DNA of 64,000 bases, taken from the IMG/VR virus record IMGVR_UViG_2913177423_000001, positions 19,415 through 83,414 of that record, one strand, 5' to 3'. The position numbers were made by a program, and so were the translations under genes. The first letter of the stretch is position 1. Each line of letters begins with the position of its first letter. The notes beneath the pieces were generated by a model. The model made no database searches. It was not told the DNA's origin and saw only the letters and a program-made list of their open reading frames with translations. The stretch comes from a virus. Taxonomy: Duplodnaviria; Heunggongvirae; Uroviricota; Caudoviricetes. Of this stretch, positions 1,932-38,120 are shown piece by piece.

Positions 1932-3152
1932 ATGGGAACTGCAATGAGTCAACAAACTGATACTTCTAATCTGGAAATCATCTCAGCCGCGATTGAAACG
2001 CTGCGGACACAGATCGCCCTTATTCAAAAGCGGAATCCGGGGGATGACCTGTCTAGGCGACTACATGAGAGCGTCATTGCCACTACTGATAACCTGGTCG
2101 CGGAGATCAACCAGCTACTTGAGGAAGGGACGGTTGATTACAACAAGCTGGTGGATCAGTTTGAGGAATATCAGCAAGCTGTTAATGATGGCCTGATTCG
2201 TTTTTCACAAGTCACAGGCGTATCAGCGACAGTTGAAAGCCTGGGCGATGCAGTTAATCAATTTGCCGCTAATATGCGTAGTGAGATCGGCAATCTGGAA
2301 GCGCGTCTTGAACAGGCAAATACACTGCGCAAATCTGCTGAAGCCGATTTGAGCCGTTACAAAAAAGACTATCCGCCCAGCCTGTCAAAACGTCTGGATG
2401 TTGCGGAGAAGGATAACCGCGCACTGAAAAGAGAGCGCCGGGAGCTGAAAGAGCGTTTAACAGAGCTGAATCAGCAATGTATTAAGTATCAAGGTGAAGG
2501 CGTCACTCTGCGTAAGAAGTTAGCAGCTGCGCAGAACATTATTGAAACTCTGAAACGAGAGTGCTCACAGCTTGGGCATGATCTGAATCGCGCTTGTGGC
2601 ATGGGGCAAAGACCAGAGACATTTCCGCTTATGTATGATGGGAGGGAAGCTATTGCCTATATCCATGAGTTTCCGCATGGCCTGGTCGCGGAGACTGGGC
2701 AGCGAGGAGAAGCATTACTGACGGCTAATTACCATCAGCAAATCAGAACTAGCCGCCTGCTGACTATGGATGTGATCCCATCTGTATGGGGAACGCCGCT
2801 TTACTATCGCCTCCCCGGCTTCGAAAAGGACTGGAACAACGACATAGACGAATGTCTGGCAGATAAAATAATGGCGTACCTGGAGACTGATTTCCCACGC
2901 CTGCATCGCCGGATTATGGACTCTAAGGACGCGCCGATCGATGAATTGAAAATGCGCCCAGAGACGCTGGAGGCAATCAAGCAGACGGAGTTTGACACTG
3001 TATTCAGTGTGGCCTGCATTCCAAGCTGTTTCCATGAAAGTATCCCGTTCATGCAAGGCGATCGTCGTCAGGAAATCATTGATGCTTGTCGCGTATGGGC
3101 GAACGAATGGGACAAGAAGAATGGGGGAGTAGAAGATCTTTACGGGAAATAA
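1932..3152 (+). CDS. coiled-coil protein, 406 aa, unknown function
   Basis: Long ORF; the N-terminal half is heptad-like and charged (LEARLEQANTLRKSAEADL...KRERRELKERLTELNQQ). Bracketed by operator-like sites at 1904 and 3154. Confidence 0.75.
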   Translation: MGTAMSQQTDTSNLEIISAAIETLRTQIALIQKRNPGDDLSRRLHESVIATTDNLVAEINQLLEEGTVDYNKLVDQFEEYQQAVNDGLIRFSQVTGVSATVESLGDAVNQFAANMRSEIGNLEARLEQANTLRKSAEADLSRYKKDYPPSLSKRLDVAEKDNRALKRERRELKERLTELNQQCIKYQGEGVTLRKKLAAAQNIIETLKRECSQLGHDLNRACGMGQRPETFPLMYDGREAIAYIHEFPHGLVAETGQRGEALLTANYHQQIRTSRLLTMDVIPSVWGTPLYYRLPGFEKDWNNDIDECLADKIMAYLETDFPRLHRRIMDSKDAPIDELKMRPETLEAIKQTEFDTVFSVACIPSCFHESIPFMQGDRRQEIIDACRVWANEWDKKNGGVEDLYGK

Positions 3153-3153
3153 T

Positions 3154-3170
3154 GTGTTAGAAATTTAATT
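3154..3170 (+). promoter_or_regulatory. operator-like 17-mer GTGTTAGAAATTTAATT
   Basis: Starts 2 nt after the stop at 3152; nearly identical to the site at 13374 (minus). Confidence 0.55.
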
Positions 3171-3309
3171 TCAACATACGAACATGTTGATTGTAGGTGT
3201 AACATAACATAGAATTTTCCTTGCTGGTGGAGCGTTGCCACATTTCGCTTGCTGGGCTTGATAGTCACTTATTGGTTGTTGTTCGCCCACCAGCAAATAA
3301 CAAATTAAA

Positions 3310-3326
3310 GTGTTAGAAAATTACAG
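3310..3326 (+). promoter_or_regulatory. operator-like 17-mer GTGTTAGAAAATTACAG
   Basis: Word-family member at the entry to the non-coding RNA island. A 10-bp stem, TTGCTGGTGG/CCACCAGCAA (3221-3297), lies between this site and the one at 3154. Confidence 0.5.
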
Positions 3327-3526
3327 GTATACAGGGACTCGCTTTGGCACCGAGCAAGCCAAAGTTCGGCAGGTTTAGTGCGTAAAGTGGTTTCAGAGAG
3401 AGCACTTTACGGAGTAAACGACAAGACATGTTGAGCCACGGAAGGTCTTTTTAAGATGTTCATTGATGATGGTCCGGAAGAGAGTAACGGGACTCACCGC
3501 ATCGAATCATCATCAATGCACATCCT

Positions 3527-3692
3527 CAACATTAAGGAGGCGCAGGGTTGGTTTTGTGCTCGCTTTTTTACTGACTCTGAGTCTCCTTAATGTTGCGGTA
3601 ATGCACCTATGCGGATGCGGCCTTGCATTGTGTCTTGAAAGAATGGGGTAAGGCCGGGGATATCCCCAGGGGGAGGCACCCCCGCCGCAACG
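3527..3692 (+). repeat. structured repeat unit, copy 1 (full)
   Basis: CAACATTAAGGAG...CTCCTTAATGTTG stem, CGGTAATGC tail, GGGGG-AGGCA-CCCCC hairpin, then GCCGCAACG. Confidence 0.5.
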
Positions 3693-3912
3693 AACAGCCA
3701 TAGACGGCAGTCGAGTGATGAAAACGTGAAAAGACTTTAAACCTCGTTACGGCTGGCGTGGCAAACGCGACAACCGGGATAGGACGGTGACGGGCGGAGA
3801 GAGTGCCGCATCAAGAAAGAAGCCGACTTGTGATTACTTTCTGCGGGCCTTTGAAAGTGAATCCAGCTCAGGCAGTCGGCTTCTTTCTTGTGTGAGATGT
3901 AGTAGCGTGTTT

Positions 3913-3936
3913 GCCCATCTTCGGGTGGGCTTTTTT
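3913..3936 (+). terminator. intrinsic terminator
   Basis: GCCCATC-ttcg-GGTGGGC followed by TTTTTT. Confidence 0.7.
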
Positions 3937-4119
3937 AGGGTTTTCGTCATTGTTAGCGACTTTGCGGCTGTTTATAAACTGACCATTAAAGTAAATGCAA
4001 ACGATGATCTGATGATGGTAGCGGCCTAATAAGCCTGACGCCACGGGGTATGAGTCGTCCCCCGTCAAAAAATCGACCACAGAGTGTCCCCGTCTGTGTA
4101 TTAGGGAACGGGGAGGCAT

Positions 4120-4196
4120 AACAGGCAAGGGCGCTGGTGTGATTAACCAGATGAATGAGAAGGGTCAGGTCTTTCTGGTCAGCGCCCTTACCTGTT
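4120..4196 (+). repeat. structured repeat unit, partial (stem module only)
   Basis: AACAGGCAAGGGCGCTG...CAGCGCCCTTACCTGTT, a 17-bp stem resembling the CAACAGGTAAG... stems of the other copies. Confidence 0.4.
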
Positions 4197-4397
4197 ACGT
4201 CCCTCCCGCGTAACAGCCATTGCTTGATGGTATAGGGGAAAGTTTGTTGGTTACGGGTATATCCCGTCATGCTGAAGGCGCTAATCACGCTGGAAGCCAG
4301 GGTTATGCATCCCCTGTTACCGAATTGCAGCCAGGGCGCGTTGCGCCGAAAAGCATACGGAGGTGGAAGCCCTCGCCGGAGACGTACCCGGCACAAT

Positions 4398-4474
4398 GGT
4401 GGTGTAGCTCAGTAGGATAGAGCAGCAGCCTTCTAAGCTGTCGGTCGGTGGTTCGAATCCACTCACCATCGCCA
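4398..4474 (+). tRNA. tRNA-Arg (anticodon UCU, reads AGA)
   Basis: Cloverleaf folded by hand: acceptor GGTGGTG/CACCATC, D arm GCTC/GAGC, anticodon loop CTTCTAA, T arm GGTGG-TTCGAAT-CCACT, encoded CCA. Confidence 0.9.
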
Positions 4475-4478
4475 AATT

Positions 4479-4554
4479 GCCGATTTAGCTCAGTTGGTAG
4501 AGCAGTCGCTTTGTAAGCGAATGGTCAGCGGTTCGATCCCGTTAATCGGCACCA
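4479..4554 (+). tRNA. tRNA-Thr (anticodon UGU, reads ACA)
   Basis: Acceptor GCCGATT/AATCGGC, anticodon loop TTTGTAA, T arm AGCGG-TTCGATC-CCGTT, encoded CCA; 4 nt after tRNA-Arg. Confidence 0.9.
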
Positions 4555-4557
4555 ACA

Positions 4558-4632
4558 CAACAGGTAAGGGCATTCTCCCTTATGGGGCTTGGCTTAAATG
4601 CATCGAGTGCTCTTACCGTTGTGATGAAGTGC
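4558..4632 (+). repeat. structured repeat unit, partial (stem plus tail)
   Basis: CAACAGGTAAGGGCA...TGCTCTTACCGTTG stem followed by TGATGAAGTGC; begins 4 nt after tRNA-Thr. Confidence 0.45.
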
Positions 4633-4813
4633 AGCTCTTTGAAGCAACCAGAAGATAAGCATCTGGCTTCACAACATAAACCGCAGGAACGACCAATAAA
4701 CGGTAGTCCGTATGGCGAACACCCCGTTGAGGAAGAGGCCTGGCCGGAACCGTAACCGGCACTACAACGTTGAGAGCATTGGCGTAACGGGGTCATATCC
4801 CAATCTATGAATA

Positions 4814-4900
4814 AATGTTGCGTTGCAGCGTGACAACCAGTGTTTTCAACATTGTGGTGAATGCACAGGCTGATGTGCCGCAACTACAGTAGTGCGCGCT
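4814..4900 (+). repeat. structured repeat unit, partial (stem, tail, CCGCAAC)
   Basis: AATGTTG...CAACATT stem, GTGGTGAATGC tail, GCACA-ggctga-TGTGC hairpin, then CCGCAACTAC. Confidence 0.4.
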
Positions 4901-4972
4901 TTGCGGGGCTTGCTACAACCCTGTGTCGGAGTTCAGCGCCGACCATCACAATTTATTTAGAAACTGTCATCC

Positions 4973-5386
4973 ATGAGCGCGAGAACAGTAATTATGCAGA
5001 AAGAGCAGTTTGTTATTTCTCTAGTGGTTAGCACCAGTTATCAGGTCGATAAAGTTTCGAAAGAAAGCGTACCTGAAATTGATGTTGTCGATGTGTTCGG
5101 CAATGAACTCAAAATACCACTTCGTGAATTTAATGAAATAGCAGCTCCGTTGGGCAAAATTGAAGGCCTGGAAGAATACCACAAGCGGATGATTATCGAG
5201 CGCGCCCAACTATGCCAGCGCATAAATAAGCTGGTTAGATTTATCGGAACAGATAACTTTCTCGCCATCGGCTTGGACAGTCAGTTGGAATTACAAAATC
5301 AGCTCGAAAGCATGATTGAGTATCGAAAAGCTCTTGATTCGCGGTTGATTAAATTAACCGAATATGACCCATCAGTAAGCGGTTAA
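4973..5386 (+). CDS. hypothetical protein, 137 aa, helical C-terminus
   Basis: ATG ORF with ordinary composition, embedded between RNA repeat units; no motif recognised. Confidence 0.55.
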   Translation: MSARTVIMQKEQFVISLVVSTSYQVDKVSKESVPEIDVVDVFGNELKIPLREFNEIAAPLGKIEGLEEYHKRMIIERAQLCQRINKLVRFIGTDNFLAIGLDSQLELQNQLESMIEYRKALDSRLIKLTEYDPSVSG

Positions 5387-5441
5387 TTATAAATTTGGGG
5401 CGGATGGTTAGTCCGCCGTTAACTCCATGAAACGGAGTACG

Positions 5442-5638
5442 CAACAGGTAAGAGCATTCTCCTGTAACGGGTTCATATCCCAATCTACAGGTCCACCAAG
5501 AATGCTCTTTCCGTTGCGGTGAATGCGGCTAAGCGCACGCGGAACAGTTAAAACAATCTTCCTTAATGTTTAAGTCAAACATCCCGGCGTTAATTGTTAA
5601 CTGGTTAACGTCACCTGGAGGCACCAGGCACCGCAATC
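5442..5638 (+). repeat. structured repeat unit, copy 3 (full)
   Basis: CAACAGGTAAGAGCATTCT...AGAATGCTCTTTCCGTTG stem, CGGTGAATGCGGCTAAGCGCAC tail, CCTGG-AGGCA-CCAGG hairpin, then CACCGCAATC. Confidence 0.5.
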
Positions 5639-5889
5639 TAATAAAGTTTCAAGCAATGGAGTTTTTGTTGTCAGACTACAGATATAGATGGTTGTGGAAG
5701 AATATCCTGTCCATATTCAAGTTTTTTCTTCCGCTATTTGTCTGCTTTGTCATGCTTCCTGAGCTGAAATACGCAATTTCAGACACCTTAAGCACTATCG
5801 TTACTTTTGTGTTTTATCTTTACTTTGATTACTTATTGAGCACTAAAATCTATGAATTATCCGATGAAATGCAAGGTGGCTGTAAGTGA
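5566..5889 (+). CDS. possible small membrane protein (AT-rich); weak call
   Basis: Hydrophobic segments (FKFFLPLFVCFVMLP, IVTFVFYLYF). The 5' third overlaps the conserved RNA hairpin, so a later start (ATG at about 5656) is more likely if the gene is real. Confidence 0.3.
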   Translation: MFKSNIPALIVNWLTSPGGTRHRNLIKFQAMEFLLSDYRYRWLWKNILSIFKFFLPLFVCFVMLPELKYAISDTLSTIVTFVFYLYFDYLLSTKIYELSDEMQGGCK

Positions 5890-6026
5890 TGAATTTTTGG
5901 GCGTTTGCCGATAAGAACCCTGGTTGGACATTTTTATTTCTGCTGGTGGTTGCATATGGGGTCGAGCAAGCGGCAAAAGCCTTACGCGGTTCTGGCAAAA
6001 AGCGTAAGCGGAATTGACAGTAATCT

Positions 6027-6102
6027 GGCCCCTTAGCTCAGTGGTTAGAGCTGGCGACTCATAATCGCACGGCCATCGGTTCAAATCCGGTAGGGGCCAC
6101 CA
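6027..6102 (+). tRNA. tRNA with CAU anticodon, Ile2 (ileX-like, AUA reader) rather than Met
   Basis: Acceptor GGCCCCT/AGGGGCC, D arm and anticodon stem-loop GGCGA-CTCATAA-TCGC match my memory of E. coli ileX/ileY; encoded CCA. Confidence 0.85.
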
Positions 6103-6290
6103 TATTTGGTTGTAACACGGCGTCTGGCACATGCGTCGTTAGCGGTCTGGTGACGTTAAAGGGATTCCCTCCCTCGCTTAGGCAAACAAATCAGGTAGCC
6201 GGAATGTGCAAGCCACCGTTTAGTTCTTTCTCGGATAAAGGGGCTCACCACCCTGGCGACGCGGTGTGACAGCCGGAAGAGCACGGCGCA

Positions 6291-6447
6291 CAACAGGAAA
6301 AGGCGTTTAATTAGCGTGAGCGCCGTTTCCGTTGTGGTAATTGCGGCTATGCGCTCGTGACGAAGCCATTTTCATTCATTGCGGTTCTGATAAGTGTCGT
6401 CGCCGGGCGTGGCTGACCTGGCAGGTGGAGGCACCACCGCCACAACT
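6291..6447 (+). repeat. structured repeat unit, copy 4 (full)
   Basis: CAACAGGAAAAGGCG...CGCCGTTTCCGTTG stem, TGGTAATTGCGGCTATGCGC tail, GGTGG-AGGCA-CCACC hairpin, then GCCACAACT. Confidence 0.5.
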
Positions 6448-6558: not shown

Positions 6559-7134
6559 ATGTTAACGGCGAACGATAACGCGTATGCAGAAGCAGATCTC
6601 ATATTGAGTGACTTCATCGGTCAGCGGGAACGCTGGACACAAAAGCGAGAGGAACTTTATGCCTCGTTAGTTCGCAAAGGTGTCAACATTGAAACCGCTC
6701 AAAGCGGCGATATGACGGTAGTCAGTGTTGGATTACATGGTGTGAGCGTGTCCGCAGCCAATCATGAGCCATACGTAGCGTTATCCGAGTCGATGGCAAG
6801 GCTAATTAAGTTTCTGAAGCAAACAGAAGCCAATAATGTTTTCATCGCCAAAAAGAACATCAATTTTTCTGCCGCCGTGTTCTGGATGATGAAGGGGCTT
6901 GACGCCCGCCGGGCATCATGGCCTAAAGGGAGCTATATGTCGATGTTCCGTGGCAGTATTGGCAGTAAAGAAAAGCTCGTCGAATTCCTGCCGGAAGAAG
7001 CATTCGATATTGTGGAAGGGTGCGATGTGATGGTTATGCCTCGCCTGGTAATGATGAATGGAGATTTACAGGCACAGACAGACTGGTTCGCCACTGGCGT
7101 GGATATTATCGCGACTGACTGGGAGGCATTCTGA
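6559..7134 (+). CDS. two-domain protein with C-terminal DUF2829 (Tad2-like) module
   Basis: AGGAG RBS. C-terminal FSAAVFWMMKGLDARRASWPKG...TDWFATGVDIIATDWEAF fits DUF2829; the N-terminal ~100 aa is unrecognised. Confidence 0.75.
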   Translation: MLTANDNAYAEADLILSDFIGQRERWTQKREELYASLVRKGVNIETAQSGDMTVVSVGLHGVSVSAANHEPYVALSESMARLIKFLKQTEANNVFIAKKNINFSAAVFWMMKGLDARRASWPKGSYMSMFRGSIGSKEKLVEFLPEEAFDIVEGCDVMVMPRLVMMNGDLQAQTDWFATGVDIIATDWEAF

Positions 7135-7634: not shown

Positions 7635-8027
7635 ATGGAGCATATCAGCAGCGCAGAAATTGCGGATATCATGATTAGGGCTGACTGCTATCTGACAGTC
7701 ACCGAAATCACCACTCTCGCTAAAGAAAAATATCCTCACCTTCATGTTTCACGCGTAAGTGTAACCAACATCATTCGGCATTTTGTGCGGTCAAGCCGAG
7801 CTATTTGTGAGCTTGATGATCGTGTTTACCCACGGAAATACTGGTTGCATGGCCTGAACGGATATCAGTTCAAGGTGCGCGGGCGTACCCCTGAATACGG
7901 CAGTTTGCTGGTTAAAAACTGTAGCAGGAAGTCTGCCGAACTGGCGCGACAAGAGCAGCGCGAGCTGGTGGACATGGCTAATAAGCTGTGGAATGCCGCA
8001 GTTAAAAAGCGTGGTGTTGCTTTATGA
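7635..8027 (+). CDS. putative late-gene activator (positional analogue of P1 Lpa)
   Basis: Small gene directly upstream of pacA and behind an operator pair, as lpa/Op86 is in P1. Assigned by synteny only; no sequence motif recognised. Confidence 0.4.
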   Translation: MEHISSAEIADIMIRADCYLTVTEITTLAKEKYPHLHVSRVSVTNIIRHFVRSSRAICELDDRVYPRKYWLHGLNGYQFKVRGRTPEYGSLLVKNCSRKSAELARQEQRELVDMANKLWNAAVKKRGVAL

Positions 8028-27246: not shown

Positions 27247-27352
27247 GAAAACACACTGTTGCGCCCTGGCATTATCGTGGGGTATATTTCTACGGCACCT
27301 TAGAAAAACGGGTGCCGGGATTGGTCTCCCGGTAATGTCAAAGGCGACACAT

Positions 27353-27374
27353 AGACGCCGCAAGCGTCTTTTTT
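27353..27374 (+). terminator. intrinsic terminator inside the immI-like leader
   Basis: AGACGC-cgcaa-GCGTCT followed by TTTTT. Confidence 0.7.
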
Positions 27375-27538
27375 GTTGTCGGCGCACTCGCACACCTATC
27401 AATGGTGGGCTGTGTGGTGGCTTCCTCGGAAGCGCCGGTTCCCTTTGACGCCGGTAAGACCAACTCCACACAGTCCACCGCCAGTAAGATTGGTCTCTTC
27501 GGCGGTGGTATCGTTCACTGTCAAAGGAGGCTGCCAAT

Positions 27539-38077: not shown

Positions 38078-38120
38078 CAATTGTGTTAGATAATTGAATA
38101 GAATTTTCTAACACAATTGG
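38078..38120. promoter_or_regulatory. 43-bp palindrome containing an inverted pair of operator-like 17-mers
   Basis: CCAATTGTGTTAGATAATTGAATAGAATTTTCTAACACAATTGG, located 7 nt upstream of rdgC. Confidence 0.65.

What the first reader, a model, noticed from the sequence alone, without database searches (positions are those of the whole stretch)
3330..3936. Discrete ~600-nt structured transcript candidate ending at a canonical terminator
A chain of perfect stems starts just after the operator at 3310 and runs to an intrinsic terminator (GCCCATC-ttcg-GGTGGGC-TTTTTT, 3913-3936). The chain includes a 17-bp perfect helix, CAAGAAAGAAGCCGACT/AGTCGGCTTCTTTCTTG. This defines a plausible stand-alone RNA upstream of, and separate from, the tRNA precursor. 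It contains one full copy of the repeated element. No ORF with a start context exists on either strand.
Basis: seen in the sequence. Interest (0 to 1): 0.7.

Follow-up and report, generated by a model that had tools for sequence, protein, structure and literature searches.

The report
Structured leader RNA with STnc100-like module
The stems and terminator are real, but they form the modular, unannotated 5' leader of a repressor-controlled tRNA/anti-defence operon in a D6-like (P1-family) phage-plasmid, and its best-conserved 100 nt are a diverged copy of the prophage small RNA STnc100, whose function is still unknown.

Summary
Window 3330-3936 folds far better than shuffles (z -6.9). It contains the perfect 17-bp helix and ends at a canonical terminator conserved across P1-like phages.

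It is probably not one discrete 600-nt RNA. It is a mosaic of independently folding modules in the leader of an early operon. A sigma70-like promoter (3187-3215) sits between two repressor-operator-like sites, so the likely start is about 3222, not 3330.

The best-conserved part is a long hairpin (3527-3595) plus a 100-nt core (3592-3691). That core is one of three paralogues in the operon, with 5513-5637 and 6331-6446. A covariance model built only from the second copy finds the core at E 2e-7, and finds genuine STnc100 of an Stx2 phage at E 3e-13. Rfam's own STnc100 model does not detect the core.

Covariation across paralogues and an excess of G.U over A.C mismatches support plus-strand RNA. 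No ORF is conserved. Only D6-like plasmids carry the region (99 of 5426 E. coli genomes), where it is unannotated.

Function is inferred, not shown: processed small RNA(s) plus partial termination.

Just downstream (3997-4032) lies a conserved tmRNA-tag-like template, ANDDLMMVAA**. It deserves its own study.

The parts
3154..3167 (+). Repressor-operator-like site O1 (GTGTTAGAAATTTA), just upstream of the promoter
   Evidence: The motif GTGTTAGAAAWTTA has 14 matches in the window against 1.16 expected. It is conserved in all homologues.
3187..3215 (+). Sigma70-like promoter (TTGATT-17-TAGAAT); likely start of the leader transcript near 3222
   Evidence: It is the only promoter-like site found in 3000-6400. 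Both hexamers are conserved across the 36 distinct homologues. The start site itself is inferred.
3221..3296 (+). 5' hairpin H0 (TTGCTGGTGG / CCACCAGCAA) with a variable interior
   Evidence: I14. The stem is kept in all 20 distinct variants, with G.U variants. z -2.8.
3310..3323 (+). Operator-like site O2, about 90 nt downstream of the inferred start and 156 bp from O1
   Evidence: (D4).
3373..3419 (+). Hairpin H2 (5+9+4 bp)
   Evidence: z -7.1. Kept in all variants, with G.U substitutions.
3455..3524 (+). Hairpin H3 (13-bp ATTGATGATGG core stem); overlaps the non-conserved 44-aa ORF
   Evidence: z -3.8. The stem is kept while its interior carries 3-, 6- and 7-nt indels.
3527..3595 (+). Hairpin H4: conserved 13-15 bp stem (CAACATTAAGGAG / CTCCTTAATGTTG) with a hypervariable tip (3542-3580) that is inverted in some relatives. 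Its 3' arm overlaps the closing stem of the core by 4 nt.
   Evidence: z -8.1. Mean pairwise identity is 95% for the stem and 66% for the tip. Compensatory A-U to G-C change in 6 of 23 sequences. The tip is reverse-complemented in L017 and L062.
3592..3691 (+). Core A: diverged STnc100/PasD-like RNA module. It has an 8-bp closing stem, a small 5' hairpin with a CUAUGCG loop, interior hairpins, and a 3' hairpin GGGGG-AGGCA-CCCCC.
   Evidence: Model R1, built only from copy B, scores it 40.9 bits, E 2.1e-7, end to end. It is the most conserved module, at 97.5% mean pairwise identity. The independent MFE fold gives the same architecture as copy B. Covariation over the paralogues is shown.
3692..3805 (+). 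Linker module of unknown role. It is absent from the L006/L007 lineage, and 3716-3786 is 81% identical to a non-coding stretch of Klebsiella phage Kp4865-1.
   Evidence: No significant fold (z -1.5).
3812..3890 (+). Hairpin H6 with the perfect 17-bp helix. In relatives and in P1 it is followed by a ~100-nt 'dicF-like' module that is deleted here.
   Evidence: I6. z -4.75. The helix is kept with three different sequences: CAAGAAAGAAGCCGACT, CAAGATAAAAGCCGACT and CAACATACAAGCCGATT with matching 3' arms.
3913..3936 (+). Intrinsic terminator (GCCCAUC-UUCG-GGUGGGC-U6), homologous to the 3' end of P1's annotated 'dicF-like region'
   Evidence: P1 homology starts at window 3909, which equals P1 68854 inside the dicF-like region 68791-68892. 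It is conserved in all relatives, with G.U/G-C switches in the stem.
5513..5637 (+). Paralogue B of the core. This is the copy Rfam calls STnc100, just below threshold.
   Evidence: RF02076 scores 42.4 bits here (gathering score 47), E 4e-7, and 47.8 bits in L004. R1 scores it 149 bits.
6331..6446 (+). Paralogue C of the core
   Evidence: R1 43.1 bits, E 6.6e-8. Its closing stem covaries with copy A (GTTGTGG / CCACAAC against GTTGCGG / CCGCAAC).

Best explanation
Window 3330-3936 is most of the 5' leader of an early operon of a D6-like, P1-family phage-plasmid.

Shown:
- The window is 90% identical to phage D6 here. The locus corresponds to the C1-controlled ban/tRNA operon of P1.
- A conserved sigma70-like promoter (3187-3215) lies between two copies of a motif that is about 12-fold over-represented in the window and sits where P1 has C1 operators.
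- The leader is a chain of independently folding plus-strand RNA modules.
- Its most conserved unit is a long hairpin plus a 100-nt core that belongs to the STnc100/PasD superfamily of prophage small RNAs. There are three paralogues per genome in this one operon.
- The leader ends at an intrinsic terminator shared with P1.

Inferred:
- When the repressor is lost, transcription starts near 3222.
- Part of it stops at 3936, giving a leader RNA of about 715 nt. The rest reads through into the tRNA-Arg/Thr genes and the downstream anti-defence-type genes.
- The long near-perfect hairpins (15-25 bp) act as RNase III/E processing or stabilising sites that release the STnc100-like core as a stable small RNA.
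- By analogy with Hfq-bound STnc100/PasD, that small RNA then acts in trans.

The target and physiological role are unknown.
For: Identity and synteny:
- 90% identity to phage D6, and P1 homology from window 3909.

Operator motif and promoter:
- 14 motif matches against 1.2 expected. Other copies lie before the lpa-like gene and near the C4 RNA, as P1 operators do.
- One conserved promoter-like site.

Structure:
- z -6.9 on the plus strand, which folds 42 kcal/mol better than the minus strand.
- Per-module z-scores run from -3.3 to -8.1.

Strand:
- With scoring that treats G.U and A.C alike, stems hold 101 G.U against 27 A.C cells over the distinct variants. The window alone has 12 against 4.
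- In the consensus structure, 19 pair positions carry G.U against 5 with A.C.

Family link:
- R1, built only from copy B, finds copy A at E 2e-7 and copy C at E 7e-8 in the whole window. Nothing else scores better than E 4.9.
- R1 also finds genuine STnc100 of phage PA28 at 64.8 bits, E 3e-13. Rfam scores that same locus 207.7 bits.
- Over 34 distinct paralogue sequences, 98.2% of cells pair and 14 of 24 pairs change on both sides. The covariation score is 0.41 against 0.17 for shuffles (0 of 500 reach it) and at most 0.10 for slid partners.

Conservation:
- The core is 97.5% identical and the H4 stem 95%, against 66-88% for the flanks.
- No ORF is conserved.
- Genuine STnc100 is likewise preceded by a hairpin, followed by a terminator, and sits in a tRNA-containing regulated phage operon.
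Against: - There are no transcript data, so the start site, termination efficiency, processing and stability are all inferred.
- Rfam's own STnc100 model does not detect copy A, even at E 10.
- The alignment was fitted to the model, and the sequences are related, so the covariation figures are inflated.
- The perfect inverted repeats, and the inverted hairpin tip in L017 and L062, show that DNA-level template switching acts here. That process can create 'compensatory' changes without RNA selection.
- The function of STnc100 itself is unknown, so the trans-acting role is analogy only.
- No significant complementarity to other transcripts of the window was found.
Confidence: 0.6

Rival explanations
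1. One reading: one discrete, stand-alone structured RNA of about 600 nt. It would be a single functional molecule, separate from the tRNA precursor, made from a promoter at the 3310 operator and ended at 3936.
For: - The terminator is canonical and conserved.
- The whole region folds with z -6.9.
- PGAP annotates nothing in any of the 99 E. coli plasmids that carry it.
Against: - Modules are gained, lost and swapped independently. 3692-3805 is absent in L006/L007, a ~120-nt module is inserted in L004-L007, and the first 50 nt are replaced in some lineages.
- The predicted long-range pairs are not conserved. One example is 3442-3453 with 3727-3738.
- No convincing promoter sits at 3310. The conserved one is at 3187-3215.
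- P1 has the same terminator after a leader of only about 180 nt.
Confidence: 0.15
2. Purely cis-acting leader. The hairpins and terminator would form an attenuator or checkpoint: they block leaky transcription in the lysogen, or serve as a put-/tR'-like antitermination site. No trans-acting RNA product would be involved.
For: - The terminator lies between a repressor-controlled promoter and the tRNA/anti-defence genes.
- This layout parallels pR'-tR' and the downstream RNA modules in lambdoid late leaders, which share modules with this operon.
- The second operator lies inside the transcribed leader.
Against: - The conserved unit A has paralogues downstream of ORFs, where there is no terminator to control.
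- Members of its family are detected as stable small RNAs in other hosts (PMC12370729; bioRxiv 10.64898/2026.05.13.724894).
- P1 keeps the terminator without unit A.
Confidence: 0.2
3. DNA-level feature. The stems would be palindromes kept by template switching, or small palindromic mobile insertions, with no function as RNA.
For: - The hairpin tip 3542-3580 is exactly reverse-complemented in L017 and L062.
- The inverted repeats are perfect.
- Modules show presence/absence polymorphism.
Against: - G.U exceeds A.C about 4 to 1 in the stems on the plus strand only. In the inverted tips the ratio flips to A.C, as RNA-level selection on the usual orientation predicts.
- The multi-helix core, which is not a palindrome, is the most conserved part.
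- The core is related to a known small-RNA family.
Confidence: 0.06
4. The region encodes a small protein, the 44-aa ORF at 3456-3590.
For: An ATG ORF is present in the window. The frame is kept between the window and the L004 group despite a 6-nt indel.
Against: - It is cut to 16 aa in 13 D6-type sequences.
- It has no start codon and only 12 aa in the L006 group.
- Its C-terminus lies in the hypervariable, invertible hairpin tip.
- It has no good Shine-Dalgarno sequence.
Confidence: 0.02

Closest known systems
STnc100 (Rfam RF02076) and PasD, prophage-encoded small RNAs of Salmonella and of Stx/lambdoid prophages in E. coli
   Same: - Same core architecture: a 7-9 bp closing stem, a short 5' hairpin with a CURWGCG loop, a variable interior, and a 5-bp 3' hairpin with an AGGCA loop abutting the closing stem.
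- Also preceded by a hairpin.
- Also located in a regulated phage operon that contains tRNA genes.
   Different: - Copy A is not detected by the Rfam model.
- Its interior is different and shorter (100 nt against 117 nt for the core).
- It lacks the family's own 3' tail and terminator (model positions 148-206); the nearest terminator is 220 nt away.
- It sits in an early, repressor-controlled operon of a P1-family plasmid prophage, with three copies per operon.
Leader of the phage P1 ban operon (Oban/P1ban, 'dicF-like region', trnA, trnT; GenBank NC_005856 annotation)
   Same: - Same genomic role: a repressor-controlled promoter, a non-coding leader ending at the same terminator, then two tRNA genes.
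- Sequence is homologous from window 3909 onwards.
   Different: - The P1 leader is only about 180 nt and consists of the 'dicF-like' module, which is deleted in the window.
- 3330-3908 has no counterpart in P1.
- The operator sequence differs from P1's.
- The 'dicF-like' module in relatives gets no Rfam DicF match.
Late-operon leaders of lambdoid phages (pR'-tR' followed by non-coding modules, tRNAs and cargo genes)
   Same: - A short terminated leader RNA followed by shared modules.
- The shared modules include a near-identical copy of the window 4556-4625 hairpin, CACAACAGG-hairpin-CCGTTGTG units, and the tmRNA-tag-like element.
   Different: - That system is regulated by Q antitermination in the late operon.
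- No Q-like factor is known or seen here.
- 3330-3936 itself has no chromosomal (lambdoid) homologue in 5426 E. coli genomes.
Stable RNAs C and D (species 1 and 2) of the phage T4 tRNA gene cluster (own knowledge, not tested)
   Same: Structured stable RNAs of unknown function that are co-transcribed with phage tRNAs and released by processing.
   Different: This is an analogy only.

Membership tests
STnc100 (Rfam RF02076) | Score at or above the curated gathering threshold (47 bits) with the Rfam covariance model | tested here: not met
   Copy A (3592-3691) gets no match even at E 10 in a 241-nt search. Paralogue B scores 42.4 bits in the window and 47.8 bits in L004. Genuine STnc100 scores 207.7 bits.
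STnc100 (Rfam RF02076) | Core secondary structure: closing stem, 5' hairpin, interior hairpin(s), and a 3' hairpin with an AGGCA loop adjacent to the closing stem | tested here: met
   R1 aligns copy A end to end at 40.9 bits, E 2e-7. The same model finds genuine STnc100 at E 3e-13. The MFE fold of copy A alone gives these helices. Covariation is shown.
STnc100 (Rfam RF02076) | Own 3' tail with an intrinsic terminator directly after the core (model positions 148-206) | tested here: not met
   Matches of the P1/D6 copies cover model positions 31-147 only. In the window the terminator lies 220 nt downstream, after two other modules.
STnc100 (Rfam RF02076) | Expressed as a stable, Hfq-associated small RNA | not testable with these tools
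   No transcript or binding data are available. The literature covers Salmonella and E. coli prophage copies only (PMC12370729; 10.64898/2026.05.13.724894).
Rho-independent (intrinsic) terminator | G+C-rich stem-loop immediately followed by a U tract, on the transcribed strand | tested here: met
   Stem 3909-3930, UUCG loop, then T6. It is conserved with G.U/G-C switches in P1, D6 and all relatives. Its activity was not tested.
P1-type C1-controlled early operon (ban operon homologue) | Repressor operator(s) at the promoter, with synteny to leader, tRNA genes and early genes | tested here: met
   Operator-like motif enriched, 14 matches against 1.2 expected, with copies at 3154 and 3310. Promoter-like site. 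tRNAs. P1 and D6 synteny. Repressor binding was not tested.
DicF (Rfam RF00039) | Match to the DicF covariance model | tested here: not met
   No DicF match in the window, nor in relatives that keep the 'dicF-like' module. The module itself is deleted in the window.
Known large ornate or structured RNAs (GOLLD, ROOL, OLE, group I/II introns, riboswitches) | Match to any Rfam 15 family in 3330-3936 | tested here: not met
   Nothing at gathering thresholds. At E up to 10 there are only chance-level microRNA/snoRNA matches.
tmRNA (for the adjacent element 3924-4032) | tRNA-like domain (acceptor stem, T arm, CCA) together with a resume codon and tag reading frame | tested here: inconclusive
   The tag and resume signal are present (ANDDLMMVAA**). 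Rfam tmRNA_permuted scores 26.2 bits against a gathering score of 47. ARAGORN finds nothing by default, and at 80% thresholds gives three inconsistent tRNA-like domains.

The most novel reading that the evidence does not exclude
The STnc100-like element may be a constant RNA frame carrying a swappable interior. The frame is the closing stem, the 5' hairpin, and the AGGCA hairpin placed like a T arm next to an acceptor-like stem. Some copy-B variants keep identical frames around wholly unrelated interiors. D6-like phages carry three such scaffolds in one repressor-controlled operon, together with tRNAs, a tmRNA-tag-like template and a Tad2-like protein. On this reading the operon is an RNA-based counter-defence or translation-rescue island, and the scaffolds act as decoys, sponges or tRNA-like processing punctuation rather than as ordinary base-pairing small RNAs.
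Probability: 0.12. Interest if true: 0.8.

Novelty: new variant of a known kind. Interest (0 to 1): 0.45.

Why it matters
STnc100/PasD-type RNAs are common in pathogenic E. coli and Salmonella prophages, but they have no established function.

This work shows three things:
- P1-family phage-plasmids carry diverged copies that Rfam misses.
- There are three copies per genome, inside a repressor-controlled operon with tRNAs and anti-defence-type genes.
- The family has a constant frame and a fast-changing interior.

D6 and P1 are genetically tractable, so this gives a system in which deletion, induction and processing experiments are easy. It also shows that P1-family early-operon leaders and lambdoid late-operon leaders draw on a shared pool of RNA modules.

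About 2% of complete E. coli genomes carry this unannotated region.

Tried and rejected
- **Known RNA families.** Rfam found nothing in 3330-3936 at gathering or permissive thresholds. That covers DicF, GOLLD/ROOL-type RNAs, introns and riboswitches.
- **Small protein.** The 44-aa ORF is not conserved.
- **One global fold.** The predicted long-range helices (3442-3453 with 3727-3738; 3232-3248 with 3892-3908) are not kept in relatives.
- **Antiterminator pairing.** 3760-3769 could pair with 3906-3915 (I25), but the upstream partner is missing in L006/L007 and P1, which keep the terminator.
- **A second promoter at the 3310 operator or after the terminator.** No conserved -35/-10 pair was seen.
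- **Antisense targets within the window.** Only operator copies and chance-level 11-13-mers turned up. The 11-nt match to 5560-5570 lies inside paralogue B, at a non-conserved ATG.
- **Distant homologues.** The genome-contig scan with an 18-mer returned only chance matches. Metagenome and viral scans returned only D6-like contigs plus chance matches.
- **Chromosomal copies.** None for 3330-3940 in 5426 E. coli genomes.
- **A tRNA-like domain for the tag-like element.** Not found.
- **Literature.** The P1 genome paper is not held. No paper on a D6/P1 leader RNA or a P1 tmRNA-like element was found.

Full report
**Where the window comes from.**
- The 1.8-kb stretch 3150-4980 is 90% identical to Escherichia phage D6. 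From window 3909 onward it is 89-92% identical to P1, P7 and other P1-like phages.
- A C4 antisense RNA at 27398-27485 fits a P1-family immunity region.
- The finding lies in a gap without conserved ORFs, between a pmgS-like gene (1932-3152) and an ORF at 4973. The gap holds tRNA-Arg(UCU) at 4398-4474 and tRNA-Thr(UGU) at 4479-4554.
- In P1 this position is the C1-controlled ban operon. It runs: operator Oban, promoters P1ban/P2ban, an annotated 'dicF-like region', trnA, trnT, tciABC, trnI, ban.
- P1 homology begins at window 3909, which equals P1 68854. That point is inside the dicF-like region (68791-68892). So the finding's terminator is the 3' end of P1's short leader, and 3330-3908 is specific to the D6 lineage.

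**Checking the observation.**
- The region folds at -246.7 kcal/mol against -202.4 +/- 6.4 for dinucleotide shuffles (z -6.9). The opposite strand reaches only -204.6.
- Folded one by one, the hairpins at 3371-3421, 3453-3526, 3525-3597 and 3806-3892 have z-scores of -7.1, -3.8, -8.1 and -4.75. The 100-nt core 3592-3691 has -3.3. The linker 3692-3805 is not significant.
- ORFs do exist, for example ATG 3456-3590 (44 aa). In relatives that one is cut to 16 aa (the D6 group), or loses its start and stops after 12 aa (the L006 group). Its C-terminus lies in a hypervariable hairpin tip. The region is therefore non-coding.

**The 5' boundary.**
- The motif GTGTTAGAAAWTTA occurs 14 times in the window against 1.2 expected. 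Copies lie before the lpa-like gene and near the C4 region, as P1 C1 operators do.
- Two copies, at 3154 and 3310, flank the only sigma70-like site in 3000-6400: TTGATT-17-TAGAAT at 3187-3215. That site is conserved in all relatives.
- A conserved hairpin (3221-3296) follows it directly.
- The transcript therefore most likely starts near 3222, and the 3310 site lies inside the leader. This is inference; no start-site data exist.

**Comparative anatomy.**
- The plasmid collection holds 121 records with a homologue of 3300-3940.
- Of 5426 complete E. coli genomes, 99 carry 3330-3940. All copies are on plasmids, none on a chromosome, and none is annotated.
- Scans of viral and metagenome contigs added more D6-like contigs, giving 36 distinct sequences at 72-94% identity.
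- Aligned, the leader is a mosaic:
  - the first ~50 nt after the operator are replaced in two lineages;
  - 3692-3805 is missing in L006/L007;
  - a ~120-nt module, P1's 'dicF-like' body, sits before the terminator in L004-L007 and P1 but is deleted in the window, D6 and L003.
- Predicted long-range helices are not conserved. The local hairpins are.
- Mean pairwise identity is 97.5% for 3592-3691 and 95% for the stem of the 3527-3595 hairpin. The other modules show 66-88%.

**RNA or DNA, and which strand.**
- I scored G.U and A.C mismatches equally when tracing each hairpin in every distinct variant. The stems then hold 101 G.U against 27 A.C cells, and 12 against 4 in the window alone.
- In the RNAalifold consensus, 19 pair positions show G.U variants and 5 show A.C. 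Two of those five occur only in the sequences with an inverted tip.
- There are true compensatory changes: A-U to G-C in the 3527-3595 stem, and three different sequences for the 17-bp helix.
- Caveat: the tip of the 3527-3595 hairpin is exactly reverse-complemented in L017 and L062. DNA-level template switching between the arms therefore happens, and it can generate paired changes by itself.
- The strand asymmetry and the non-palindromic conserved core still argue for selection on a plus-strand RNA.

**The repeated element and what it is.**
- The core 3592-3691 resembles 5513-5637 and 6331-6446 at both ends. The 5' ends read GTTGYGGTRAWTGC..CTAWGCG. The 3' ends read GGNGG-AGGCA-CCNCC..CCRCAAC.
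- Rfam matches the second copy to STnc100 (RF02076) at 42.4 bits, just under the 47-bit threshold. The homologous copy in L004 scores 47.8 bits. It does not detect the first or third copy.
- I built a covariance model (R1) from 13 sequences of the second copy only.
  - Over the whole 64-kb window, both strands, it finds exactly three matches, all end to end: itself, 6331-6446 (43.1 bits, E 6.6e-8) and 3592-3691 (40.9 bits, E 2.1e-7). The next match has E 4.9.
  - The same model finds the genuine STnc100 of Stx2 phage PA28 at 64.8 bits, E 3e-13. Rfam scores that locus 207.7 bits.
- On 34 distinct paralogue sequences, 98.2% of cells pair and 14 of 24 pairs change on both sides. The covariation score is 0.41 against 0.17 for shuffles and at most 0.10 for slid partners. 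That alignment was fitted to the model, which inflates these figures.
- The core is therefore a diverged member of an STnc100-like superfamily, but it fails the Rfam membership threshold.
- P1 has only the second copy, upstream of tciA.

**Unit architecture.**
- Each copy is preceded by a long hairpin whose 5' arm starts with CAAC and whose 3' arm ends in GTTG. Those four bases are also the start of the core's closing stem, whose partner is another CAAC.
- The same kind of hairpin follows tRNA-Thr (4556-4625).
- In relatives, the 17-bp hairpin is followed by GTTGTGG and the 'dicF-like' body, closed by CCACAAC. So 3812-3890 looks like the hairpin of a unit whose core was deleted in this lineage.
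- Genuine STnc100 also starts inside the 3' arm of an upstream hairpin and carries its own terminator. It sits after tRNA genes and stx2 in the Q-dependent late operon.
- Some copies of the second paralogue keep identical frames around entirely different interiors.

**Mechanism.**
- Shown: position, promoter-like and operator-like sites, plus-strand structure, family relationship, conserved terminator.
- Inferred: derepression starts transcription near 3222. Part of it ends at 3936 and the rest continues into the tRNAs and downstream genes. The 15-25 bp hairpins serve as RNase III/E processing or stabilising sites that release the STnc100-like core.
- From my own recollection of the P1 literature, not checked here: the P1 bac-1 operator mutation expresses ban through the homologous terminator in lysogens.
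- Trans action through Hfq is analogy with STnc100/PasD. These are reported as prophage small RNAs of still unclear role (PMC12370729; bioRxiv 10.64898/2026.05.13.724894).
- A search for complementary targets inside the window found nothing beyond chance.

**Verdict.** The region is real, structured, transcribed-strand RNA. It is a modular operon leader containing a new, Rfam-invisible variant of a known prophage small-RNA family, not a single novel 600-nt RNA. Interest is moderate.

**Side finding.**
- Directly after the terminator, Rfam's permuted-tmRNA model aligns 3924-4029 at 26.2 bits, well below the 47-bit threshold (E 0.002-0.011). The match rests on its tag template: UAAAU-GCA AAC GAU GAU CUG AUG AUG GUA GCG GCC UAA UAA, which reads ANDDLMMVAA**.
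- The tag is invariant in P1 and all D6-like relatives.
- It recurs at 80-83% identity in 139 chromosomal places. The two examined (L075, L076) lie in lambdoid prophages between the Q gene and the holin gene. There it reads ANDDLMLMAA*, with frame, length and ends preserved.
- No tRNA-like domain could be established.
- This may be the more surprising object in the neighbourhood.

Noticed in passing
window 3924-4032 (tag frame 3997-4032); also L002 (P1), L075 3036-3090, L076: A tmRNA-tag-like template lies right after the terminator. A resume-codon context UAAAU is followed by GCA AAC GAU GAU CUG AUG AUG GUA GCG GCC UAA UAA, which reads ANDDLMMVAA**. That is the same length and the same ends as the E. 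coli ssrA tag. It is invariant in all P1/D6-like loci. Homologous stretches occur at 139 chromosomal places; in the two examined (lambdoid prophage Q-to-holin leaders) the tag is kept as ANDDLMLMAA*. Rfam tmRNA_permuted scores 26.2 bits (gathering score 47). ARAGORN finds no tmRNA at default settings, and no tRNA-like domain was established.
   Followed up: partly
window 3542-3580; L017 and L062 homologous positions: The ~40-nt tip of the 3527-3595 hairpin is exactly reverse-complemented in two relatives, relative to D6. The flip lies between 13-bp perfect inverted repeats. The tip is also the least conserved part of the leader (66% identity).
   Followed up: partly
window 5513-5637 homologues in L055 13707-13831 and L028 727-850: Copies of the STnc100-like paralogue B keep identical 5' (~30 nt) and 3' (~26 nt) frames, but carry completely unrelated interiors of similar length. 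The interior looks like an exchangeable cassette.
   Followed up: no
window 4556-4677; L075 2918-2985; L073 ~2720-2790: A hairpin unit, CACAACAGG-GTAAG(G/A)GCATTC...GTGCTCTTA-CCGTTGTG, follows tRNA-Thr. It is nearly identical in a lambdoid prophage late leader and is recognisable in Klebsiella phage Kp4865-1. P1-family early leaders and lambdoid late leaders therefore share RNA modules. In P1 this stretch is annotated as the minus-strand genes plp and upl, which may be spurious.
   Followed up: partly
window 4973-5386, 6559-7134, 7635-8027: Genes of or near the same operon include a crAss001_48-related protein (E 2e-12) and a protein with a Thoeris anti-defence Tad2-like domain (E 3e-9). The late-promoter activator Lpa follows. 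The operon looks like an anti-defence/tRNA island.
   Followed up: partly
window 4398-4474 against P1/D6: The first tRNA of the pair is tRNA-Arg(UCU) here, but tRNA-Asn(GUU) in P1 and D6. L004 has four tRNA-like genes at this spot. The tRNA cargo of the operon is being exchanged.
   Followed up: no
window 3716-3786; L073 2501-2572: A 72-nt piece of the otherwise D6-specific linker is 81% identical to a stretch of Klebsiella phage Kp4865-1 (Uetakevirus) that appears non-coding. That record is unannotated and a 113-aa ORF overlaps the start of the match. The stretch also carries CACAACAGG-hairpin units.
   Followed up: partly
window 27295-27374 and 27398-27485: Rfam isrK (61 bits) lies directly upstream of the C4 antisense RNA (73.7 bits). 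This is the expected P1-type immI region.
   Followed up: no
window 38083-38114: Two operator-like motifs lie in inverted orientation 5 bp apart. This may be a bivalent operator of the D6-type repressor.
   Followed up: no
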